The notes beneath the pieces were generated by a model, which had not been told where the DNA came from, made no database searches, and saw only the letters and a program-made list of their open reading frames with translations. Shown here in pieces: positions 19,039 to 28,310 of a stretch of DNA of 64,000 nt (position 1 is the stretch's first letter; the number at the start of each line of letters is the position of its first letter). The translations under genes were made by a program, and so were the position numbers. The DNA is from Bacteroidota bacterium (lineage in GTDB: Bacteria; Bacteroidota; Bacteroidia; Bacteroidales; JACABE01), in the NCBI GenBank assembly GCA_037133555.1, contig JBAXNW010000012.1, forward strand, positions 4,906 to 68,905, in the 5' to 3' direction.

Positions 19039-20733
19039 TTAGTTCATAATTAAATTTCTTTCTTTGTCATATTTGATCGTATAAGTGAAGATCACAACTT
19101 TACTTTCTTTTGGCTTTAATTTCATCTTCCAGTTAAGCATTCCTGTATTTTCATTAAAGTTGCCTGTGAAATTCTCAGCATCAAAACTAACCTTGATATC
19201 CTTGTCGTTAGCTACAGGAATCTGGTCTTCCAGATTTAGATCAACCATTGAGCTTTTATTGTTTCTTACTGTAATTTCCATGCTTATAGTTTTTATGCGT
19301 GAACTGCCCATAATTTGTTCTTTTTCTTTATCTTTCAGTTTTTTGCGCTGAATGTTGATGCCTTTATCGCGTCCAAGCGAAAGTTCAAGCGTGTCGCTTA
19401 TTATATTGGGGTCAATATTGGTTTCACCGACAAATGCATTTTCAAAATAAATATTGGCTTTGGCTGCAACTAAATTCAATTCTTCCCAGGCGCTAAGTCG
19501 GGCAATCAGGAATGCATCTTTATCAATTTTGGGTGCTGTATAATAATTATAGCTTGTAGCAATATTGTTATATTCCTGAACAAATACAAGGTGGTATTTT
19601 CCATCACTGGGTATGGTATATGGTAAGTCAATATTATATTCCATCGCTGTTATATTTTTAGTTTGGGTAGTGTAATTTGAAGCAGTTTGAGCACTTGGGA
19701 TTTTCTTCCCTTTAGAAGAAACAGTTTCAACTTCTTCTAATGATTTAAGAGAAACTGAAGCTGGAGCATTATCTGAAGTACCCATATACATATTAGATGT
19801 GTATGCATTTACAGGCATGTAGTAATTCAAATACCATGCGGCCAGATAGGGTTTGGTATTGTTTTTTCCGGGGGTGTTGGTAGAGAGTTTTAATTTAACA
19901 TTGTTCCAGTCTTCGCCAGTATTTTGGTAAACGTTGGCTTTAAATGTCAATTCAACCGGTGCATCAACATCTTTTACACGGATGTCGTAAGCTGGTGTCC
20001 ATCCTGCATTGGAGCAGATATACGAAATAGAAAGACTTCCACTAACAGCTTCTTTTGCAGATACGGTGACAATTACCTGGTAGATTGGAGCAGTTGAACT
20101 TGTTTTTTCACTGATAAGTCTGGCTTTGTAGGCCAATAATTCGTTGTAACGGGTTTGAAGTTGTGTACGTCTCAAATTTATTTTACTTTCTTCACGTCTT
20201 ATTTTTTGAAGTTCTGTATTTATAGCGTTCATTTTAGTGTTGTAATACTCCAGGACATCTTTCAAAACAGCTAAAGAATCGCTTTTGCCACCACCACGCA
20301 TAAGGGGATTGTTAGCCAGCATTTCCTTTTGTTTGATGAATAGATCTCTACGATCTTTGATGACATCAAAATCAAAATTGATATCGTTGATAGTGTCTAG
20401 TAATGATTCTATTTTGTGTTGTAAGTTAGCAGGGATCAATATTTCAGGATTATCGGCTGGTTCCGGATATTGAATGTTATGACGTGAATCGAGGATGATG
20501 AAATTGCCTTTGCCAGAGGGTTGTATGCTCGATATATTGGTATATGGAGAAATCCCTTCAAAAACCAGTTCGCTGACACCAGGCTGTATGTTAACAGTTG
20601 CGGTTCTGACTATCTGTGCTCCATTGGTAAAAAGACTCACTTCTTTTACGGATGATTTTAAAACCTTTTGTGACTGAGCAAAAACTATATGCTGACCCAA
20701 GAGCATAAGTAAGACGATGCTGATTTTTTTCAT
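19039..20733 (-). CDS. DUF4140/DUF4139-type (MuiA-like) secreted protein
   Basis: 564 aa with the signal peptide MKKISIVLLMLLGQHIVFAQ, a central coiled-coil segment and a C-terminal beta-rich region. The family call is from overall pattern memory only. Confidence 0.55.
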   Translation of the reverse strand: MKKISIVLLMLLGQHIVFAQSQKVLKSSVKEVSLFTNGAQIVRTATVNIQPGVSELVFEGISPYTNISSIQPSGKGNFIILDSRHNIQYPEPADNPEILIPANLQHKIESLLDTINDINFDFDVIKDRRDLFIKQKEMLANNPLMRGGGKSDSLAVLKDVLEYYNTKMNAINTELQKIRREESKINLRRTQLQTRYNELLAYKARLISEKTSSTAPIYQVIVTVSAKEAVSGSLSISYICSNAGWTPAYDIRVKDVDAPVELTFKANVYQNTGEDWNNVKLKLSTNTPGKNNTKPYLAAWYLNYYMPVNAYTSNMYMGTSDNAPASVSLKSLEEVETVSSKGKKIPSAQTASNYTTQTKNITAMEYNIDLPYTIPSDGKYHLVFVQEYNNIATSYNYYTAPKIDKDAFLIARLSAWEELNLVAAKANIYFENAFVGETNIDPNIISDTLELSLGRDKGINIQRKKLKDKEKEQIMGSSRIKTISMEITVRNNKSSMVDLNLEDQIPVANDKDIKVSFDAENFTGNFNENTGMLNWKMKLKPKESKVVIFTYTIKYDKERNLIMN

Positions 20734-20970
20734 GATTTTTGGAATGATAAGTGAATAAATATATATTTTTATGATAGTTTCTTAGCAAAATCCATGCCAT
20801 GTTTGCAAAATTGTAAATAAATAGGATTGAATTCAATAAAAACGTTTTTTTTATTAATTTGAATTCTAGGTTCCTCTAAATTTTATAACTTTTTTTTAGA
20901 ATTTTATAACACTTAAGCTATCAAGTTAAAGTAATATTGCAAACTCAATTATTCATTAATTTAAAAAATC

Positions 20971-21225
20971 ATGAAAATAAATAAAAATATAGCCATCAGC
21001 GACACCGGTTTTGTGTTTAATCCTCTTAATGGTGAGTCGTTTTCTATCAACCCTATTGGAGTTGAAATCATCAATATGATGAAAGAGGATAAGTCATTCG
21101 AATTTATTATGCAGGAGATGCTTACAAAATACAGCGTTGAAGAAGCTACCATCGAAAAAGATTATTTCGATTTTATCGGAATTCTGAAACACCACAACCT
21201 AATTGAAATCAATGAAAAAGCGTAA
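20971..21225 (+). CDS. PqqD-family (RRE-like) small protein
   Basis: 84 aa. The stretch ...GFVFNPLNGESFSINPIGVEIINMMKEDKSFEFIMQEMLTKYSVEEATIEKDYFDFIGILKHHNLIE matches the PqqD layout: beta-strands ending in 'N..g..f.lN..g..iw..l', then a helical 'i...l...y.v......D...fi..L....li'. Confidence 0.7.
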   Translation: MKINKNIAISDTGFVFNPLNGESFSINPIGVEIINMMKEDKSFEFIMQEMLTKYSVEEATIEKDYFDFIGILKHHNLIEINEKA

Positions 21226-22258
21226 AGTTTGCATTGCTGTGAGTGGTTTAAATGCCATTGACAGTCCTGGTCCTGGCGTTGCAGTTATCAGGGGCTTGAG
21301 GGAGGCAGATAGTCTGGATGTTCGGATAATAGGCTTGGCTTATGAATCGCTCGAACCAGGTATTTATATGCACAACATCGTCGATAAAACCTATTCTATT
21401 CCTTATCCAACAGCAGGAACTGATAGTCTGCTTGCCAGAATGGAGTATATCAATGATATCGAAAAAATAGATGTTATCATTCCTAATTTTGATGCAGAAT
21501 TGTACTCTTTTATGAAACTGGAAGATACATTTAAGGCTATGGGAATCCATATGTTTTTGCCGACTATGCAACAATTTGAGGAGCGCCACAAAGTGAATCT
21601 TCCGGAATTTGGTAAGAAATATGATATCAAAGTACCTTTTAGTAGATCAATATTCAGCACCAATGAAATCTTCAGCCTGACGGATGATTTTGAATTCCCG
21701 ATGGTTATCAAAGGGAAATACTACGATGCCAGTATCGCCTATAATTTTGAACAAGCCAAAAGCTATTTTAATAAGATCAGTGCTAAATGGGGCTTGCCTA
21801 TTGTGGTGCAACAATTTGTACATGGTACCGAATACAATATTACAGGTTTGGGTGATGGCAAAGGAAATACCATAGCTGCTGTCCCAATGCGTAAACAATA
21901 TATAACAGATAAAGGTAAAGCCTGGGGTGGGATTTCTATCGACGATCAATCAATGATAGATTTAACCCATAAATTTGTGAGCCAGACCAAATGGAGGGGT
22001 GGCTTTGAATTAGAATTGATGAAGGGACAGGATAACGAATTTTATTTACTCGAAATAAATCCCCGGATACCAGCCTGGATTTATCTGGCAGTAGGAGTAG
22101 GTCAAAATATTCCCGAAGCATTGGTAAACCTTGCATTGGGCGAAAAAGTTGAACCCTATACCAAATATGATGTTGGTAAAATGTTTATTCGTTATGCCTG
22201 GGATATGATTGTTGATATTAAAGAATTTCAACAAATTTCAACAGTCGGGGAATTGTAA
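21212..22258 (+). CDS. ATP-grasp ligase of unknown specificity
   Basis: About 348 aa counted from ATG 21212; the track uses TTG 21203. It has a pre-ATP-grasp N-domain (KVCIAVSGLNAIDSPGPGVAVIRGL), a central FPMVIKGKYYDA segment and C-terminal FELELM...FYLLEINPRIP (the E-x-N-x-R metal/ATP motif). It overlaps the PqqD-like ORF by 14 nt. Confidence 0.8.
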   Translation: MKKRKVCIAVSGLNAIDSPGPGVAVIRGLREADSLDVRIIGLAYESLEPGIYMHNIVDKTYSIPYPTAGTDSLLARMEYINDIEKIDVIIPNFDAELYSFMKLEDTFKAMGIHMFLPTMQQFEERHKVNLPEFGKKYDIKVPFSRSIFSTNEIFSLTDDFEFPMVIKGKYYDASIAYNFEQAKSYFNKISAKWGLPIVVQQFVHGTEYNITGLGDGKGNTIAAVPMRKQYITDKGKAWGGISIDDQSMIDLTHKFVSQTKWRGGFELELMKGQDNEFYLLEINPRIPAWIYLAVGVGQNIPEALVNLALGEKVEPYTKYDVGKMFIRYAWDMIVDIKEFQQISTVGEL

Positions 22259-22282
22259 TTATTAAAAAAACAAAAAAACAAA

Positions 22283-23641
22283 ATGGAAAAATTAAGATAT
22301 GAAAGACCGGTTATAAAAAAATTAGAAACCGGAATGCCTAATAAATTTGGTTTAAGAACAGAATATGCTCCTATGACGCATATTGATGGAAATGCTGTAA
22401 AGGATTTGGTTAAAGAATATGGATCGCCCTTGTATGTGATTTCTGAAGCTACCATGCGCTCAACCATTAATAAAGCTAAAAAAGCTTTTACGACACGTTA
22501 TCCAAAGGTTCAGTTTGCCTGGAGTTATAAAACCAATTACTTAAACGCTGTTTGCAATGTATTTCACCAGGAAGGTAGCTGGGCAGAAGTAGTTTCTGGT
22601 TTTGAATACGAAAAAGCCTTACGCAATGGTGTGGATGGTAAAAAAATCATTTTCAATGGCCCTGATAAAAGCGAAGCTGATTTGCGCAAAGCCATCAGTA
22701 ATGATTCATTGATACATATTGACCACCTGGACGAATTGTATACCATACTCGAAATTACCGAAACTACTGATAAAAGACCTAAAGTTGCTATCCGTGTAAA
22801 CATGGATACAGGTATTTATCCAATCTGGGATCGTTTTGGTTTTAATTACGAAAACGGGCAAGCCTGGGATGCATTGAACAAAATTATGCGTTCTGGAAAA
22901 CTAGATTTGGTTGGACTGCATTCTCATATTGGTACTTTTATGCTGGCAGCCAGTGCTTATGCTATAGCAGCAGGTAAATTGGCTGATCTTGCTATAGGCA
23001 TCGAACAAAAATACAATCATACCATCAAATATATTGATATGGGTGGTGGATTCGCTTCCAAAAATACTTTAAAAGGTTCATATTTGCCAGGTACTGATAC
23101 CAATCCTACTTTTGATGATTTTGCGGAAGCGATAACTACAACTTTACTGAACAGTAATTTTAAAAACAACGAATTACCTACTTTGATTCTGGAAACAGGA
23201 CGTGCTTTAATAGACGATGCAGGTTATCTGATTGGAAGTGTAATTGCCAACAAACGTACTTCTGCTGGTAAACGTACCACCATTATTGATGTCGGCGTGA
23301 ACCTTTTGTTTACCGCCTTCTGGTACGAACATAAAATGACACCAGCTCAACCATTCACCCATTATACTGAAACAACCCAGGTTTTCGGACCCTTGTGTAT
23401 GAACATTGATGTGATCAGAGAAAATATCGATTTACCCTTGTTGAACAAAGGCGATCAGGTCGTGATTTCAACAATAGGTGCTTACAATATGACCCAATGG
23501 ATGCAGTTTATTACGCTAAGGCCGAATGTTGTGATGATAGATACCAATGAAACTGTACATTTAATTCGTGAAAACGAAAAATTGGAAAGTATCACTACTC
23601 ATGAAAAAATGCCTGAACACTTAAAAAAGTTTGAATTGTAA
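22283..23641 (+). CDS. fold-type III PLP-dependent decarboxylase (Orn/DAP/Arg decarboxylase family)
   Basis: 452 aa. PLP-lysine context FAWSYKTNYLNAV, glycine loop IDMGGGF and C-terminal active-site Cys context FGPLCMNIDVI. The start lies 24 nt after the ATP-grasp stop. Confidence 0.8.
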   Translation: MEKLRYERPVIKKLETGMPNKFGLRTEYAPMTHIDGNAVKDLVKEYGSPLYVISEATMRSTINKAKKAFTTRYPKVQFAWSYKTNYLNAVCNVFHQEGSWAEVVSGFEYEKALRNGVDGKKIIFNGPDKSEADLRKAISNDSLIHIDHLDELYTILEITETTDKRPKVAIRVNMDTGIYPIWDRFGFNYENGQAWDALNKIMRSGKLDLVGLHSHIGTFMLAASAYAIAAGKLADLAIGIEQKYNHTIKYIDMGGGFASKNTLKGSYLPGTDTNPTFDDFAEAITTTLLNSNFKNNELPTLILETGRALIDDAGYLIGSVIANKRTSAGKRTTIIDVGVNLLFTAFWYEHKMTPAQPFTHYTETTQVFGPLCMNIDVIRENIDLPLLNKGDQVVISTIGAYNMTQWMQFITLRPNVVMIDTNETVHLIRENEKLESITTHEKMPEHLKKFEL

Positions 23642-23672
23642 AGCATTTTAAACCGAATATTCATCAACCTTA

Positions 23673-23720
23673 AAAGCCTATTGCATTTTGTAACAAAAAA
23701 TGGAATAGGCTTTTGGTATT
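23673..23720 (+). terminator. rho-independent terminator closing the PqqD / ATP-grasp / decarboxylase operon
   Basis: A 10-bp stem (aaagcctatt 23673-23682 / aataggcttt 23704-23713) is followed by tggtatttttt. Confidence 0.6.
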
Positions 23721-23758
23721 TTTTATAAATTTGCATTCAATTACAAAAACAACAAATA

Positions 23759-24946
23759 ATGATTGAAATAACAGAAAAAATAAAGGCATTAGCAGAAAAA
23801 TATGCCAACTATACCGCTGAAAATCTTTCAAAACTTGTAAAAATCAAATCTTTAAGCATGCAAGAGCAAGAAGTGCAATTTGAACTCAAACGTCAAATGG
23901 AAGAAGCAGGCTTTGATGAGGTTTTTATGGATGGAATTGGCAATGTAATTGGAAGGATAGGGAATGGTAAAAAGATATTGGCAATTGACGGACACATGGA
24001 TACGGTGGATGTTGGTAATCTCGAAAACTGGAGTTTTGACCCTTTTTCGGGTGAAATAAAAGACGGCTACGTTCATGGTCGGGGTACAGTAGATCAGGAA
24101 GGTGGACCTGCAGCTTTTGTTACTACCGGCAGAATTTTAAAAGAACTGGGCTACGACCGCGATTTGACAATCTATTTTGTGGGAAGTGTAATGGAAGAAG
24201 ATTGTGATGGCTTGTGCTGGAAATACATCATTGAAGAAGATAAAATCCGTCCTGATTTTGCCATCAGTACCGAACCAACCAATTTAAACATTTATCGCGG
24301 TCACCGTGGCCGAATGGAAATTCATGTTCATTTCAAAGGATTATCTTCTCATGGTTCTGCTCCCCAAAGAGGTAAAAATGCAATCTATATGGCATCCCGT
24401 GCGGCCCTTGAAATTGAAAAACTGAACGAGCGTTTGGCGAACGATGAGTTTTTGGGCAAAGGCAGTGTTACTATTTCCGAAATTATTTCAGGGAGTCCTT
24501 CTTTGTGTGCAGTAGCTGATTATGCTCGTATCCATCTCGACCGTCGATTAACCTGGGGCGAAACCAAAGAATCAGCCGTAAAGGAAATTGAAGAAATTGT
24601 AAAAGAAATGGATGCCAAAGTTGAGGTATTGTATTACGATGGACTTGCTTTTACAAGCAATCATTATGGTATGGAAAAGTATTATCCTACCTGGAAAATT
24701 CCTGCTGACCATATTGCAGTTACTACAGGCGAAACAGCTTTCGTAAACTTATTTGGGAAAAAACCCTTGGTTGACAAATGGACTTTTTCTACCAATGGAA
24801 TAGCCCTCAATGGAATGTATGCAGTTCCAACCATCGGATTTGGACCAGGCAATGAAGTAATGGCTCACGCTCCTGACGAGAAAGTGCTGGTCAGCGATTT
24901 GGTAGCTGCATCTGCATTTTATGCCATGTATGCTTATTTGATATAG
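23759..24946 (+). CDS. M20-family metallohydrolase, YgeY-like
   Basis: 395 aa. The motifs ...AIDGHMDTVDVG....W.FDPF.GEIKDGYVHGRGTVDQEGG... and EEDCDGLCWKYIIEEDKIRPDFAISTEPTNLNIYRGHRGRMEI closely resemble the YgeY subgroup as I remember it. Confidence 0.7.
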   Translation: MIEITEKIKALAEKYANYTAENLSKLVKIKSLSMQEQEVQFELKRQMEEAGFDEVFMDGIGNVIGRIGNGKKILAIDGHMDTVDVGNLENWSFDPFSGEIKDGYVHGRGTVDQEGGPAAFVTTGRILKELGYDRDLTIYFVGSVMEEDCDGLCWKYIIEEDKIRPDFAISTEPTNLNIYRGHRGRMEIHVHFKGLSSHGSAPQRGKNAIYMASRAALEIEKLNERLANDEFLGKGSVTISEIISGSPSLCAVADYARIHLDRRLTWGETKESAVKEIEEIVKEMDAKVEVLYYDGLAFTSNHYGMEKYYPTWKIPADHIAVTTGETAFVNLFGKKPLVDKWTFSTNGIALNGMYAVPTIGFGPGNEVMAHAPDEKVLVSDLVAASAFYAMYAYLI

Positions 24947-26185: not shown

Positions 26186-26264
26186 TCTTTCTTTTTCATG
26201 GAGAAATAGTTTTTCTCTCTACGCTTGAATATCGCTTTGTAAGATCAGAAACTTGAAAATTAAT

Positions 26265-28310
26265 ATGACTATTACAACAAATACCAGGGTACTTATTCCA
26301 GTTTCTGCAGGCTTGCTATTTCAAAGTATAACTGCTCTGGCACAGCAACATGTTCAAAGACCCAATATCGTCTTTATCATGAGCGACGATCATGCATCAA
26401 AAGCTATCAGTTGCTACGATGGAAGCATCAATAAAACTCCTCAGATTGATCGTATTGCTACCAACGGAGTTAGATTTACCAATTGTTTTTGTACCAATGC
26501 TGTCAGTGGTCCTAGCCGTGCTGTAATTTTAACCGGACAATTGTCTCACATCAATGGAATGATAAATAACGAAGTGGTTTTTGATTCTGCCAGCCTTACG
26601 CTTCCCAAAGTGTTGCGTGCAAATGGCTATCAGACGGCTATCATAGGAAAGTGGCATCTGAAAAGCGATCCGACTGGTTTTGACTTTTGGAAGGTGCTGC
26701 CGGGACAAGGCGAATATTTTAATCCCGATTTTATTGAAAATGGAAAGAAAAAACGCGAAAAGGGTTATGTTACTGATCTGATAACAGATTACTCGCTTCA
26801 ATGGATGGATCAGCGGGATACTACCAGACCTTTTTTTATCATGATACATAACAAAGCCCCTCACCGACCCTGGTTACCCAAACCTGAAAATGCCACAATG
26901 TATGATACAGCAAATATCCCCTTGCCTGATAATTTCTATGATGATTACAACAACAGAGCCGATGCAGCTAAAACTCAGCAGATGTCTGTTGCAAAAGACC
27001 TTGTCTTTCCGGTTGATCTGAAAATACCTGATACGTCATCAGCAAGCTATAGCCTTCAGGAAAATTCAATCCGTCTGGATGCTAAGGAAAGAAAAACCTG
27101 GGACAGTATTTACCAGATCAGGAACGAATCTTATTTTAAGACTCCTTTAAAAGAGAAAGAACTGGCAGTTTGGAAATACAGAAGGTATCTCAACGATTAT
27201 CTGGCTACTATCAAAACGGTGGACGACAATGTAGGCAGAGTATTGGATTACCTGAAAGCGAACGGACTTTCAGAGAATACGATAGTGATTTATACTTCTG
27301 ATCAGGGTTTTTTTCTGGGTGAACATGGCTGGTTCGATAAACGGTTTATGTATGATGAAAGCTACCGCATGCCTTTACTTATTCAGTATCCTGCAAAACT
27401 AAAAGCCGGAAAAACCAATGATCAGCTGGTGATGAATCTTGATTTTGCACCAACTTTGCTTGAATGGGCAGGTATTCAGAAGCCAAAACAGATGCAGGGG
27501 CTGTCTTTTACTTCTTATATTGATCAATCAGCAAGGCTGCGCGATGCAACCTATTATCACTATTATGAATATCCGGGCGAACATGCAGTGAAACGGCACT
27601 ATGGTATCCGTACCGAAAAATATAAACTCATTCATTACTACTATGATATTGATCAGTGGGAATTGTTCGATTTGCAGAAAGATCCTCATGAAATGAAAAA
27701 TGTTTACAATCATGAAGATTATAAAAATATTCAGCATGAACTGCTCTTACAATTAAAAAAAATGCAGCAGGAATATCGCGATACCTCCATGAGTGTTCCC
27801 CTGAATTATAAAATCAGTCCAAATAAAGCCCTGAATTTGGACTATCAACTCTTAAACCAGCCTTCTTCAAAGTATTCAGGCAATGCTAAAAATTCACTGA
27901 CAGATGGAAAGATAGAGAATCCTGCATTTATGTCTACTAAAGTCACTCCAATCTGGAATGGATTCGAAGGGTGCAATCTGGAAATGATATTTCCCTGCAA
28001 AGCAATCACAGCGATAAAAGAAATTGAAATTCGTTTTCTGGATCTGCCCGATTCCTGGATATTCTTGCCCGAAACGCTTTCTTTTTCATGCCTAACTGAA
28101 AAAAATAAATGGGAAAGATTTGATAAAGTATTGATTACTAAAGAAAAAAGAACAACTGGGGGTATGATATTTCATTATAAAGTGAAGATCAATCAAAAAA
28201 ATATACATCAGATTAAAATCAAGGCCGTGAATCATGGAATTTGCCCCCCTGGCCATCCAGGCGAAGGAAAACCTGCATGGATATTTTGCGATGAGGTGAT
28301 AGTGAGGTAG
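26265..28310 (+). CDS. Ser-type sulfatase with a C-terminal discoidin-like domain
   Basis: Sulfatase signature FCTNAVSGPSRAVILTG with Ser (codon agt 26505-26507) at the formylglycine position. Also IVFIMSDDH, GKWHL and YTSDQGF. The track start is TTG 26253 and the first ATG is 26265. Confidence 0.85.
   Translation: MTITTNTRVLIPVSAGLLFQSITALAQQHVQRPNIVFIMSDDHASKAISCYDGSINKTPQIDRIATNGVRFTNCFCTNAVSGPSRAVILTGQLSHINGMINNEVVFDSASLTLPKVLRANGYQTAIIGKWHLKSDPTGFDFWKVLPGQGEYFNPDFIENGKKKREKGYVTDLITDYSLQWMDQRDTTRPFFIMIHNKAPHRPWLPKPENATMYDTANIPLPDNFYDDYNNRADAAKTQQMSVAKDLVFPVDLKIPDTSSASYSLQENSIRLDAKERKTWDSIYQIRNESYFKTPLKEKELAVWKYRRYLNDYLATIKTVDDNVGRVLDYLKANGLSENTIVIYTSDQGFFLGEHGWFDKRFMYDESYRMPLLIQYPAKLKAGKTNDQLVMNLDFAPTLLEWAGIQKPKQMQGLSFTSYIDQSARLRDATYYHYYEYPGEHAVKRHYGIRTEKYKLIHYYYDIDQWELFDLQKDPHEMKNVYNHEDYKNIQHELLLQLKKMQQEYRDTSMSVPLNYKISPNKALNLDYQLLNQPSSKYSGNAKNSLTDGKIENPAFMSTKVTPIWNGFEGCNLEMIFPCKAITAIKEIEIRFLDLPDSWIFLPETLSFSCLTEKNKWERFDKVLITKEKRTTGGMIFHYKVKINQKNIHQIKIKAVNHGICPPGHPGEGKPAWIFCDEVIVR

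What the first reader, a model, noticed from the sequence alone, without database searches (positions are those of the whole stretch)
20971..23641. PqqD-like chaperone + ATP-grasp ligase + Orn/DAP-type PLP decarboxylase operon with no visible precursor peptide
Seen in sequence: three same-strand ORFs are packed as one unit. The ATP-grasp ATG at 21212 lies inside the last codons of the 84-aa PqqD-like ORF (14-nt overlap). The decarboxylase starts after a 24-nt A-rich spacer, and a hairpin with a T-tract (23673-23720) closes the unit. A 237-bp non-coding spacer precedes it. Catalytic hallmarks look intact: ATP-grasp LLEINPRIP, and decarboxylase PLP-Lys context WSYKTN, GGGF loop and GPLCMNID cysteine. 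Established knowledge: PqqD/RRE domains bind a peptide and present it to a partner enzyme, and ATP-grasp ligases make amide or ester bonds through acyl-phosphates. Carrier-tethered chemistry that pairs an ATP-grasp ligase with an Orn/DAP-family decarboxylase is known from the butirosin side-chain pathway (BtrI/BtrJ/BtrK). ATP-grasp loading of a small carrier protein is known from LysW/LysX. Inference: this trio could ligate an amino acid onto a peptide or small-protein scaffold and then decarboxylate it, which would be a peptide-templated amine or modified C-terminus. I found no candidate precursor ORF in the flanks; the upstream ATGs open reading frames of fewer than 10 codons. So the substrate may be encoded elsewhere, the 84-aa protein may itself be the scaffold, or the product may be a small molecule. 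I do not know of a characterised pathway with this exact trio.
Basis: partly seen in the sequence, partly recalled or inferred. Interest (0 to 1): 0.8.

Follow-up and report, generated by a model that had tools for sequence, protein, structure and literature searches.

The report
Precursor-less PqqD–ligase–decarboxylase gene module
Three tightly packed genes (a small peptide-binding protein, an ATP-dependent amide-forming ligase and a decarboxylase) form the core of an uncharacterised biosynthetic system found in very different bacteria, and the missing peptide substrate may be a conserved tail on the decarboxylase itself.

Summary
Window 20971-23641 (+) encodes an 84-aa PqqD/RRE protein, a 348-aa ATP-grasp ligase (14-nt overlap) and a 452-aa alanine-racemase-fold PLP decarboxylase, closed by a strong terminator hairpin.

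The trio is collinear in every one of 83 related Bacteroidota loci whose contig reaches far enough. It recurs in lineages of 54-70% GC, where PqqD-ligase and ligase-decarboxylase fusions occur.

The window lacks these.

No precursor ORF is conserved in any lineage. PqqD has no invariant attachment residue. The decarboxylase is not DAP decarboxylase: it has a FigC-like pocket with no charged specificity residues.

New lead: its near-invariant N-terminal tail, disordered in the AlphaFold2 model, carries YxxPx[LI]. That is the lasso-leader motif that PqqD-type RREs bind. A Gly-flanked Lys follows it.

Best reading (about 0.4): the RRE docks this tail onto the ligase, which forms an amide that the decarboxylase then processes. 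I found no description of this system in the searchable literature. Product unknown.

The parts
20734..20970 (.). 237-bp AT-rich intergenic region between the divergent MuiA-family gene (19039-20733, -) and the trio; presumed promoter region
   Evidence: It holds no ORF of 40 aa or more that is conserved in relatives. No exact TAnnTTTG box on the + strand here.
20971..21225 (+). 84-aa PqqD-like RRE (peptide-recognition) protein
   Evidence: Pfam PqqD E=7e-9, 36.3 bits against a cut-off of 23.4. Best NCBIfam hit is lasso_PqqD_Bac, 31.3 bits, below its cut-off. Best PDB hit is the lasso RRE TbiB1 5v1u, E=1e-5. It is 38-81% identical in 81 loci. The beta-strand region and the third helix are the most conserved parts; the C-terminus is variable.
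21212..22258 (+). 348-aa ATP-grasp carboxylate-amine ligase, translationally coupled to PqqD (14-nt overlap)
   Evidence: Pfam ATPgrasp_Ter and ATP-grasp_3. All NCBIfam hits are below cut-off, the best being 'CPS-like PRK12767'. It is 69-93% identical across 83 loci. AF2 model pTM 0.76. Foldseek finds only generic ATP-grasp folds: 2pn1, biotin carboxylase, PurD and the L-amino-acid ligases RizA and BL00235.
22259..22282 (+). 24-nt A-rich spacer between ligase and decarboxylase
   Evidence: The spacer length varies from -50 to about 690 nt in relatives and holds no conserved ORF.
22283..23641 (+). 452-aa alanine-racemase-fold (type III) PLP decarboxylase of the FigC/DAPDC/BtrK clade; not a DAP decarboxylase
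   Evidence: Pfam. FslC model 243.8 bits (cut-off 500); lysA 223.9 (cut-off 297.9). PDB: FigC 7kh2 1.8e-59, DAPDC 1twi 6e-41, BtrK 9e-24. The catalytic residues K83, H213/H215, G254-256, R307 and C372 are present. The specificity positions T344/W347/Y348, M373/I375 and Q405/M407 are uncharged and invariant (PMC7857480).
22283..22366 (+). Decarboxylase N-terminal tail (residues 1-28): conserved, predicted disordered, absent from FigC, LysA and BtrK alignments
   Evidence: pLDDT is 30-42 in the AF2 model while the barrel scores above 85. Y6, E7, R8, P9, K13, P19, N20, K21 and G23 are invariant in 30 sequences. PDB alignments start at residue 33-36.
22298..22315 (+). Y6-E-R-P-V-I11: lasso-leader-like YxxPx[LI] motif, candidate ligand of the RRE
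   Evidence: Present in 76 of 81 Bacteroidota loci. Also present in 8 of 9 divergent lineages: L084, L090, P0168, L093, L094, L095 and L096, with the Pro shifted in L086. The YxxPxL motif of lasso leaders is bound by B1 RREs (PMC6784204). The fusilassin leader is KYTAPQLAKV (PMC12338566). Chance of the motif in a random 28-mer is 0.7%.
22343..22345 (+). Lys21 codon in the Gly-flanked G-M-P-N-K-F-G loop: candidate attachment or recognition residue (inference)
   Evidence: Invariant in Bacteroidota. It is Lys in 8 of 9 divergent lineages and Arg in the P0168 fusion.
23671..23726 (+). Intrinsic-terminator-like hairpin (23671-23715) plus T-run closing the operon
   Evidence: dG -24.2 kcal/mol, z = -4.3.

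Best explanation
The trio is the cytoplasmic core of a conserved, uncharacterised biosynthetic system.

Step 1 (inferred from family chemistry). The ATP-grasp ligase activates a carboxylate as an acyl-phosphate. It joins an amino acid through a distal group to a partner, forming an amide.

Step 2 (inferred from clade membership and pocket residues). The FigC/BtrK-type PLP decarboxylase removes the alpha-carboxyl of that conjugated amino acid, leaving an amide-linked amine unit.

Step 3 (inferred from motif, conservation and predicted disorder). The PqqD-like RRE does not present a separately encoded precursor. Its ligand is the decarboxylase's own disordered N-terminal tail, which carries the lasso-leader-type recognition motif YxxPx[LI] followed by a Gly-flanked conserved Lys. 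Because the RRE is translationally coupled to the ligase (or fused to it elsewhere), this docks the tail and the decarboxylase onto the ligase. The docking either channels a small intermediate between the two enzymes, or uses the tail as a built-in arm on which the unit is loaded and processed.

Step 4 (inferred from gene context in relatives; these genes are absent from this window). A cytoplasmic amide-acting domain (M23 peptidase, or SIR2 lysine deacylase with or without GNAT) is fused to a urea-transporter-fold channel. It releases or tailors the product, which crosses the envelope with the help of periplasmic TPR proteins and a probable outer-membrane barrel.

The amino acid used and the final product are unknown.
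For: Functional unit:
- The trio is collinear in all 83 Bacteroidota loci where the contig allows. The ligase is 69-93% identical and the decarboxylase 64-94%.
- The same core recurs in lineages of 54-70% GC (GC values).
- Rosetta-stone fusions exist: PqqD-ATP-grasp (P0208) and ATP-grasp-decarboxylase (P0168).

Conjugated substrate:
- The best characterised relatives are FigC, then DAPDC, then BtrK.
- The DAPDC Arg and the ODC/ADC Asp on the specificity helix are replaced by T344/W347/Y348.
- The residue after the catalytic Cys is Met, as in FigC.
- FigC's citrate-binding H357 and R387 are I375 and Q405 here (PMC7857480 section 8). All of these are invariant.

No external precursor:
- No small ORF is conserved in any spacer of 83 loci, and some spacers are too short to hold one.
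- None is seen in the divergent loci either.

Tail as RRE ligand:
- The tail is a family-specific N-terminal extension.
- It is near-invariant yet has pLDDT 30-42.
- YxxPx[LI] is present in 76 of 81 Bacteroidota loci and in 8 of 9 divergent lineages.
- The window PqqD's best structural and family hits are lasso B1 RREs, which bind YxxPxL leaders (PMC6784204).
- The extended match to the fusilassin leader is [KR]YxxPx[LI]xK[VL] (PMC12338566). Chance of the core motif is 0.7%.

Release and export:
- The UT domain is fused to M23 in Bacteroidota and in L084 and L093. It is fused to SIR2 in L086 and L094, and to SIR2+GNAT in L090.
- SIR2 needs NAD+, which places the fused domain in the cytoplasm.
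- The TPR partners carry signal peptides.
Against:
- The low pLDDT of the tail could reflect a shallow alignment or the missing dimer partner.
- YxxPx[LI] is short. It also occurs by chance inside the M23 fold of the UT-M23 protein (YNKPVI).
- In L086 the Pro is shifted. In the P0168 fusion the motif persists although the decarboxylase is already tethered to the ligase, and the conserved Lys is Arg there.
- The window and about 10% of loci lack the UT-fusion, TPR and barrel genes nearby. Step 4 is therefore not shown for this genome.
- The first zinc motif of the M23 domain is non-canonical, HxxD.
- Foldseek gives no clue to the ligase's substrates.
Confidence: 0.4

Rival explanations
1. Classical RiPP-type pathway. 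The RRE presents a ribosomal precursor peptide that is encoded elsewhere in the genome. The ATP-grasp adds an amino acid to its C-terminus or to a side chain. The decarboxylase then converts that residue into an amine cap.
For: The RRE is canonical and is fused to the ligase in some lineages, as is typical for RiPP enzymes. An AR-fold decarboxylase already acts in one RiPP pathway, MccE in microcin C (PMC7857480). The strong conservation of both enzymes would fit a conserved macromolecular substrate.
Against: No conserved small ORF lies next to the genes in 83 Bacteroidota loci or in 9 divergent lineages. The constant partner is a UT-fold small-solute channel, not a peptide exporter or a leader peptidase. 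The decarboxylase tail already supplies an RRE-type motif.
Confidence: 0.2
2. A purely small-molecule pathway that follows siderophore or polyamide logic. The ATP-grasp joins a free acid to the omega-amine of Orn, Lys or a related diamino acid. The decarboxylase then makes the N-acyl-diamine, as FigA/FigC do for rhizoferrin. In this reading PqqD is only a structural or regulatory subunit of the ligase with no peptide ligand, and the product is exported through the UT, TPR and barrel proteins.
For: FigC is the closest characterised homologue. The pocket is FigC-like. The system includes a UT channel and envelope partners. The upstream AraC regulator has an HMA/CopZ-like N-domain in 34 loci. An occasional extra aminotransferase or isomerase gene sits inside the cluster.
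Against: FigC's citrate-binding residues are not conserved. There is no TonB-dependent receptor or NIS synthetase. This reading explains neither a conserved RRE with an intact beta3/alpha3 surface nor the conserved leader-like disordered tail.
Confidence: 0.2
3. A cell-envelope modification system. The ligase and decarboxylase build an amine-bearing unit, for example a diamine added to a peptidoglycan stem-peptide carboxylate or to a polysaccharide. The M23, TPR and barrel proteins act on or with the wall. This would be analogous to cadaverine-linked peptidoglycan, or to the ligase/ACP/decarboxylase trio associated with exosortase A.
For: M23 domains are usually peptidoglycan endopeptidases. 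The TPR protein resembles the PEP-CTERM TPR lipoprotein PrsT, and the decarboxylase hits the exosortase-associated decarboxylase model at 133 bits. The partners are periplasmic TPR proteins and a barrel.
Against: M23 is replaced by NAD-dependent SIR2 in other lineages. That places the fused domain in the cytoplasm, away from the wall. No Mur-ligase, glycosyltransferase or lipid-carrier genes are conserved in the cluster. All family-model scores are far below their cut-offs.
Confidence: 0.1
4. The 84-aa PqqD protein is itself a covalent carrier, like LysW or BtrI, on which the amino acid is loaded.
For: It is small, has an acidic C-terminal tail in Bacteroidota, and is translationally coupled to the ligase.
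Against: The C-terminus is variable and is not acidic in divergent lineages. Only fold-defining residues are invariant, with no conserved Lys, Glu, Asp or Ser. It is fused N-terminally to the ligase in P0208, so its C-terminus is not free there.
Confidence: 0.03
5. Ordinary housekeeping genes, as public annotation has it: diaminopimelate decarboxylase (lysine synthesis) plus a 'carbamoyl-phosphate synthase large subunit' or 'biotin carboxylase'.
For: These are the public names given to the homologues.
Against: The lysA model scores below its cut-off. The DAPDC specificity residues are missing. The ligase is a single 348-aa ATP-grasp module at 15-18% identity to CPS and biotin carboxylase. It is always paired with a PqqD gene.
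Confidence: 0.02

Closest known systems
Butirosin side-chain pathway BtrI/BtrJ/BtrK (Bacillus circulans)
   Same: An ATP-grasp ligase is paired with an AR-fold PLP decarboxylase that acts on an amino acid held through a distal group on a small protein. A later enzyme removes the handle. BtrK is a detectable homologue (E about 1e-23).
   Different: There is no acyl-carrier protein or thioester chemistry here. A PqqD/RRE stands in place of BtrI. The decarboxylase is closer to FigC than to BtrK. The membrane UT-fusion and TPR partners have no counterpart.
FigA/FigC (FslA/FslC) rhizoferrin route and SbnH/AcsE (N- or O-citryl amino-acid decarboxylases)
   Same: FigC is the closest characterised decarboxylase (205 bits; 7kh2). 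The logic is the same: ligate first, then decarboxylate the conjugate. Met follows the catalytic Cys, and Thr and Tyr sit on the specificity helix.
   Different: The ligase is an ATP-grasp, not an NIS synthetase. FigC's citrate-binding His and Arg are Ile and Gln here. The FslC model scores 244 against a cut-off of 500. An RRE and an N-terminal leader-like tail are present.
Lasso-peptide B1 RRE with YxxPxL leader recognition (e.g. TbiB1/TbiA, FusE/fusilassin)
   Same: The window PqqD's best PDB and NCBIfam hits are lasso RREs. The candidate ligand carries the same YxxPx[LI] core, and the extended match to the fusilassin leader is [KR]YxxPx[LI]xK[VL].
   Different: There is no lasso protease (B2) or cyclase (C). 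The motif sits on the N-terminus of an enzyme, not on a precursor peptide. The lasso RRE family scores are far below their cut-offs (31 against 80).
LysW/LysX amino-group carrier system
   Same: An ATP-grasp loads an amino acid onto a protein handle, and a metallohydrolase releases the product at the end.
   Different: There is no LysW-like zinc-ribbon protein with a conserved C-terminal Glu. A link through the alpha-amine would block a PLP decarboxylase. No RimK or LysX family hit was found.
Microcin C maturation (MccD/MccE)
   Same: An AR-fold decarboxylase of the same clade converts a carboxy-aminoalkyl group attached to a ribosomal peptide derivative into an amine (PMC7857480).
   Different: There is no MccB-type adenylating enzyme, no SAM-dependent transferase and no precursor gene here.

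Membership tests
PqqD / RRE domain family (PF05402) | Profile match above Pfam's gathering score over the whole winged-helix plus three-strand domain | tested here: met
   36.3 bits against 23.4, covering residues 15-78 of 84. The homologues all carry PF05402.
PqqD / RRE domain family (PF05402) | Binds a peptide (leader) as an added beta-strand | not testable with these tools
   Only indirect evidence is available: beta3 and helix 3 are the most conserved parts, and a candidate YxxPx[LI] ligand exists.
Lasso-peptide biosynthesis (B1 RRE / B2 protease / C cyclase) | B1-specific model score above cut-off | tested here: not met
   lasso_PqqD_Bac scores 31.3 bits against a cut-off of 80; lasso_PqqD_Strm scores 22.1 against 70.
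Lasso-peptide biosynthesis (B1 RRE / B2 protease / C cyclase) | Adjacent transglutaminase-like protease, Asn-synthetase-like cyclase and precursor gene | tested here: not met
   None is present in the window flanks or in any related locus.
ATP-grasp superfamily | ATP-grasp fold with the Mg/ATP-binding E-x-N motif | tested here: met
   ATPgrasp_Ter 44.9 bits and ATP-grasp_3 28.7 bits, both above their cut-offs. The motif LLEINPR is present. The AF2 model matches ATP-grasp structures with probability 1.0.
Carbamoyl-phosphate synthase / biotin carboxylase (public annotation of homologues) | Equivalog-level model score; tandem modules or a biotin-carboxylase C-domain | tested here: not met
   CPSaseII_lrg scores 25.7 bits against a cut-off of 1027. 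It is a single 348-aa module at 15-18% identity to CPS and biotin carboxylase structures.
RimK/LysX-type protein-carboxylate ligases; graspetide ligases | Family-level profile match | tested here: not met
   No RimK or LysX hit at E <= 0.01 in NCBIfam or Pfam. No graspetide-specific model was available to test.
Alanine-racemase-fold (type III) PLP decarboxylases | Both Pfam domains; PLP Lys, Gly-rich phosphate loop and catalytic Cys from the partner subunit | tested here: met
   PF02784 scores 106.7 bits and PF00278 scores 51.5. K83 (WSYKTN), G254-256, R307 and C372 align with FigC K63, G237-239, R290 and C354 (PMC7857480).
Diaminopimelate decarboxylase (LysA) | Equivalog score, plus the Arg on the specificity helix and Glu after the catalytic Cys that bind the distal carboxylate and amine | tested here: not met
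   lysA scores 223.9 bits against a cut-off of 297.9. The window has NLLFTAFWY where DAPDC has MNDMMRPAMY, and CMN where DAPDC has CES.
N-citrylornithine decarboxylase FslC/FigC | Model score above cut-off; His357, Arg387 and Asn389 for the citryl group | tested here: not met
   243.8 bits against a cut-off of 500. The positions are I375, Q405 and M407.
RiPP biosynthetic gene cluster | A precursor-peptide gene associated with the modifying enzymes | tested here: not met
   No small ORF is conserved in any spacer of 83 loci, and none is seen in the divergent loci. A distant genomic location could not be searched.
Butirosin-type carrier pathway (BtrI/J/K) | Phosphopantetheinyl carrier protein | tested here: not met
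   No PP-binding or ACP domain occurs in the window trio or in conserved neighbours.

The most novel reading that the evidence does not exclude
The decarboxylase carries its own 'leader plus core'. The RRE grips the YxxPx[LI] segment of the enzyme's N-terminal tail. The ATP-grasp ligase acylates the Gly-flanked Lys21 of that tail with an amino acid, through a side-chain carboxylate. The tail then swings the tethered amino acid into the decarboxylase active site. A lysine deacylase (SIR2) or isopeptidase (M23) fused to a urea-transporter-fold channel cleaves the product off and passes it out of the cell. This would be a self-scaffolded assembly line in which an enzyme is also the carrier protein, recruited by RiPP-type leader recognition.
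Probability: 0.15. Interest if true: 0.9.

Novelty: new variant of a known kind. Interest (0 to 1): 0.72.

Why it matters
RRE/PqqD domains are treated as markers of ribosomal peptide natural products, and genome-mining tools flag such loci as RiPP clusters. This system is a widespread, strongly conserved RRE-containing system with no precursor gene. It occurs in hundreds of Bacteroidota species-level genomes and in unrelated high-GC lineages. In it, the only RRE-type recognition motif sits on an enzyme.

If the RRE binds that tail, leader-peptide recognition has been co-opted either to assemble enzymes or to turn an enzyme into its own carrier. That would change how 'orphan' RRE loci are interpreted.

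The system would also define a new route to an amide-linked, decarboxylated amino-acid product, coupled to an unusual export device: a urea-transporter fold fused to M23 or to a sirtuin.

On a practical level, the homologues are currently mis-named 'diaminopimelate decarboxylase', 'alanine racemase', 'carbamoyl-phosphate synthase large subunit' or 'biotin carboxylase'. These names could distort metabolic reconstructions of lysine and pyrimidine pathways in MAGs.

Tried and rejected
- Small-ORF search (12-90 aa, both strands) upstream of the trio, in the ligase-decarboxylase spacer and downstream, across 84 loci. Only frame shadows of the AraC gene clustered.
- LysW-like carrier idea for PqqD. 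Rejected because the C-terminus is variable and no functional residue is invariant.
- Sequence and profile searches of the ligase against PDB. Nothing closer than CPS, PurD or 2pn1.
- AF2 plus Foldseek on the ligase. Only generic ATP-grasp folds, with no substrate clue.
- Paired chimera alignment (decarboxylase tail, linker, PqqD) for AF2.
- Literature searches on PqqD/ATP-grasp/decarboxylase, urea transporter/M23/ATP-grasp, RRE/ATP-grasp/PLP decarboxylase, urea transporter/PqqD, and RRE-Finder. They returned only reviews or unrelated graspetide work.
- tblastn of UT-M23, barrel, TPR and AraC proteins against the whole 64-kb window. No hit.
- The downstream YgeY-type M20 hydrolase as a LysK-like release enzyme. 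Not adopted: it has its own promoter after a terminator, it is a bona fide YgeY-family member, and it is adjacent only in the window and its closest relative L006.
- Polyamine biosynthesis. Considered unlikely because the decarboxylase sits with the non-polyamine clade and lacks the Asp residues that bind basic side chains (PMC7857480).
- Sporadic inserted genes (eIF2B/MtnA-like isomerase, GntC-like aminotransferase). Noted, but too rare to define the pathway.

Full report
**1. The observation**

The three same-strand ORFs are exactly as described:
- 20971-21225: 84 aa.
- 21212-22258: 348 aa. Its ATG lies inside the last codons of the first ORF, giving a 14-nt overlap.
- 22283-23641: 452 aa, after a 24-nt A-rich spacer.

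A 237-bp spacer separates the unit from a divergent MuiA-family gene.

Pfam assigns the three proteins as follows, all above the gathering scores:
- PqqD: 36.3 bits.
- ATP-grasp: ATPgrasp_Ter 44.9 bits and ATP-grasp_3 28.7 bits.
- Both halves of the Orn/DAP/Arg decarboxylase fold: 106.7 and 51.5 bits.

The quoted motifs are all present. The closing hairpin is real: 23671-23715 plus a T-run, dG -24.2 kcal/mol, z = -4.3 against shuffles. A Bacteroidetes-type -7 box at 23726 serves the next gene. In this window the trio is therefore a self-contained operon.

**2. Conservation of the trio**

The ligase has thousands of homologues; the nearest 120 are all 74% identical or more. A scan of one genome per species returned at least 562 loci, of which 80 were kept. 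Three more loci came from contig look-ups.

In all 83 loci, PqqD, ligase and decarboxylase are adjacent and collinear wherever the contig extends far enough. Identities:

| Protein | Identity to window |
|---|---|
| Ligase | 69-93% |
| Decarboxylase | 64-94% |
| PqqD | 38-81% |

The window's flanking genes (MuiA and the YgeY-type M20 hydrolase) are shared only with its closest relative, L006.

**3. The unit is usually larger**

Clustering of all flanking ORFs shows what follows the trio in 64 loci. That is about 64 of the roughly 70 loci with enough downstream sequence:
- A protein of about 735 aa that combines a urea-transporter (UT) fold with a Peptidase_M23 domain.
- A protein of about 493 aa with a signal peptide, TPR-like N-terminus and a C-terminus that looks like an outer-membrane barrel.
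- A TPR protein of about 210 aa.

In 34 loci an AraC-type regulator with an HMA/CopZ-like N-domain lies upstream.

None of these is found anywhere in the 64-kb window. Six other loci likewise show a stand-alone trio.

**4. Divergent lineages**

An exhaustive HMMER search of cluster representatives found 227 representatives at E <= 1e-30. Among them are:
- tandem double ATP-grasp proteins;
- a PqqD-ATP-grasp fusion (P0208);
- an ATP-grasp-decarboxylase fusion (P0168).

Contexts for these distant members (30-49% identity; 54-70% GC against 34% for the window):

| Locus | Gene order |
|---|---|
| L084/85 | PqqD, ligase, decarboxylase, UT/M23, TPR, TPR |
| L086/87 | TPR, PqqD, double ligase, decarboxylase, UT/SIR2 |
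| L090 | TPR, PqqD-ligase fusion, degenerate ligase, decarboxylase, UT/SIR2/GNAT |
| L088/89 | PqqD, ligase-decarboxylase fusion |
| L093 | TPR, PqqD, ligase, decarboxylase, UT/M23 |
| L094 | GNAT, TPR, PqqD, double ligase, decarboxylase, UT/SIR2 |
| L095 | PqqD, ligase, decarboxylase, then a gene with a probable UT start |
| L096 | two ligase genes, then decarboxylase |

One member at 30% identity (L092) has neither PqqD nor a decarboxylase. It marks the edge of the family.

The conserved system is therefore: periplasmic TPR, PqqD, ATP-grasp, AR-fold decarboxylase, and a UT-fold membrane protein fused to an amide-acting enzyme. SIR2 needs NAD+, so the domain fused after the UT fold is most likely cytoplasmic. 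This is an inference, and by position it extends to the M23 domain.

**5. What the decarboxylase is**

Its best characterised relatives are:

| Relative | Score |
|---|---|
| FigC/FslC N-citrylornithine decarboxylase (7kh2) | 1.8e-59 |
| DAP decarboxylases | 6e-41 and weaker |
| BtrK | 9e-24 |
| D-Orn/Lys decarboxylase | 2e-22 |
| Classical ODCs | 1e-11 and weaker |

All NCBIfam models fall below their cut-offs. Li et al. (PMC7857480) place FigC, SbnH, AcsE, MccE, BtrK, DAPDC and D-ODC in one clade with no role in polyamine synthesis. Most of its members act on amino acids conjugated through a distal group.

I mapped the paper's specificity positions through the HMMER alignment:

| Position | Window residue | Comparison |
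|---|---|---|
| Specificity helix | T344, W347, Y348 | FigC has T327, T330, Y331; DAPDC has an Arg and ODC/ADC an Asp there |
| After catalytic C372 | M373 | Met as in FigC, rather than the acidic residue that binds a free side-chain amine |
| FigC citrate ligand H357 | I375 | not conserved |
| FigC citrate ligand R387 | Q405 | not conserved |
| FigC citrate ligand N389 | M407 | not conserved |

All of these window residues are invariant in a 30-sequence alignment. The enzyme is therefore not LysA and not FigC. Its pocket suits a neutral, conjugated side chain.

**6. What the ligase is**

It is a single-module ATP-grasp with an intact E-x-N motif. It has no close solved relative by sequence. 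An AF2 model (pTM 0.76) matches only generic ATP-grasp enzymes: the structural-genomics protein 2pn1, biotin carboxylases, PurD, PurK, and the L-amino-acid ligases RizA and BL00235. The chemistry (carboxylate to acyl-phosphate to amide) follows from the superfamily. The substrates remain unknown.

**7. The missing peptide**

No small ORF is conserved in any spacer of the cluster. In several loci the spacers are too short for one. None appears in the divergent loci.

The PqqD protein itself has no invariant Lys, Glu or Asp beyond fold-defining positions, and its C-terminus varies. A LysW-like carrier role is therefore unlikely.

The decarboxylase, however, has an N-terminal extension of about 30 residues. 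This extension lies outside every alignment to FigC, LysA and BtrK. It is among the most conserved parts of the protein: Y6, E7, R8, P9, K13, P19, N20, K21 and G23 are invariant. Yet AF2 predicts it as unstructured, with pLDDT 30-42 for residues 1-28 against more than 85 for the barrel.

The extension reads M-E-K-L-R-Y-E-R-P-V-I-K-K-L-E-T-G-M-P-N-K-F-G. The segment Y-x-x-P-x-[LI] occurs in 76 of 81 Bacteroidota loci and in 8 of 9 divergent lineages:

| Lineage | Motif |
|---|---|
| L084 | YEKPRL |
| L090 | YQPPLI |
| P0168 | YVRPSI |
| L093, L095 | YERPAI |
| L094 | YSPPSV |
| L096 | YEKPTI |
| L086 | YEPMRL (Pro shifted) |

YxxPxL is the conserved leader motif of actinobacterial lasso peptides, which the PqqD-like B1 RRE recognises (PMC6784204). 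The window PqqD's best PDB hit is the lasso RRE TbiB1, and its best NCBIfam hit is the lasso PqqD chaperone model.

The fusilassin leader, KYTAPQLAKVGEF (PMC12338566, Table 1), aligns with window residues 5-14 (RYERPVIKKL) as [KR]YxxPx[LI]xK[VL]. The chance of the core motif in a random 28-mer of this composition is 0.7%. The extended pattern is much rarer, but it was defined after the fact.

About ten residues downstream lies a Gly-flanked Lys (G-M-P-N-K-F-G). It is Lys in 8 of 9 divergent lineages.

**8. Most likely mechanism**

Shown here:
- the domain identities;
- operon coupling;
- co-conservation and gene fusions;
- absence of a local precursor;
- the uncharged, FigC-like pocket;
- the conserved tail that is predicted disordered and carries the motif.

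Inferred:
- The ligase forms an amide between an amino acid and a partner.
- The decarboxylase removes the alpha-carboxyl of the conjugate.
- The RRE, coupled or fused to the ligase, binds the decarboxylase's own leader-like tail. The tail either simply assembles the two enzymes or serves as an arm (Lys21) carrying the intermediate.
- In most genomes, the UT-fused M23 or SIR2(+GNAT) domain releases or tailors the product for passage through the envelope.

I put this at about 0.4. The covalent-arm version is the most novel reading, at about 0.15.

Points against:
- No interaction could be computed.
- The motif is short and also occurs by chance inside the M23 fold.
- The motif persists in a ligase-decarboxylase fusion, where the conserved Lys is Arg.
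- The window itself lacks the envelope genes.

**9. Rivals**

- Classical RiPP with a distant precursor: 0.2.
- Pure small-molecule, siderophore-like pathway in which PqqD is a mere subunit: 0.2.
- Envelope modification: 0.1.
- PqqD as carrier: 0.03.
- Housekeeping LysA/CPS, as publicly annotated: 0.02.

**10. Comparison with known systems and novelty**

The system works most like butirosin BtrJ/BtrK and FigA/FigC: ligate, then decarboxylate a conjugate. It uses a RiPP-type RRE most like lasso B1 proteins. It fails the membership tests for each of those systems:
- no ACP;
- no NIS synthetase or citrate ligands;
- no lasso protease, cyclase or precursor;
- all equivalog scores below cut-off.

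No paper in the searchable library describes the combination. I rate it a new variant of a known kind, namely carrier- or RRE-guided ligase/decarboxylase chemistry. It would move towards categorically new if the enzyme-borne leader or arm is confirmed.

Noticed in passing
L002:10445-12649 and 63 other related loci; L086:11544-13217; L090:7233-9344; L094:10544-12178: A urea-transporter-fold membrane domain is fused to different amide-acting enzymes in different lineages: Peptidase_M23, SIR2, or SIR2+GNAT. It always lies next to the PqqD/ligase/decarboxylase core. In the M23 version the HxH motif is intact, but the first zinc motif reads HAWD (HxxD rather than HxxxD).
   Followed up: partly
L009:10508-11455, L024:10438-11394, L038:10461-11369, L055:10432-11349; L047:12345-13505, L065:11181-12341, L079:11174-12322: Some loci carry extra genes inserted between the decarboxylase and UT-M23. 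One is an eIF-2B/MtnA-like sugar-phosphate isomerase homologue. Another is a class I aminotransferase whose best model hit is the guanitoxin cyclodehydratase GntC (214 bits, below cut-off). These may be lineage-specific tailoring or salvage steps.
   Followed up: partly
L002:7131-7673 and 33 other loci (upstream of PqqD): An AraC-type regulator has an N-terminal domain resembling the HMA/CopZ metal-binding fold (E about 1e-5). In L001 the usual CxxC is replaced by an adjacent CC pair.
   Followed up: no
window 23759-24946 (+): An M20 hydrolase scores well above the cut-off of the YgeY 'selenium metabolism-linked hydrolase' family (515 against 321 bits). It stands here without the usual ygeW/ygeX-type neighbours, directly after the trio's terminator, and is shared only with relative L006.
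   Followed up: partly
window 19039-20733 (-): A 564-aa MuiA-family protein (DUF4139/DUF4140, 'mucoidy inhibitor A') is transcribed divergently from the trio. It is not conserved next to the trio in other genomes.
   Followed up: no
window 26253-28310 (+): A 685-aa protein appears from its sequence to have a signal peptide and a sulfatase-like N-terminal half, plus a C-terminal extension of about 200 aa. No family search was run on it.
   Followed up: no
L091:1954-2231: In this metagenomic contig the PqqD gene is split into two short called genes by an apparent frameshift, so only the second piece scores as PqqD. This is probably an assembly or sequencing error rather than a pseudogene.
   Followed up: no
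Public names of homologues (P0021, P0126, P0294, P0334 and others): Homologues of the ligase are named 'carbamoyl-phosphate synthase large subunit' or 'biotin carboxylase'. Homologues of the decarboxylase are named 'diaminopimelate decarboxylase' or 'alanine racemase'. The curated models and active-site residues support none of these names.
   Followed up: yes
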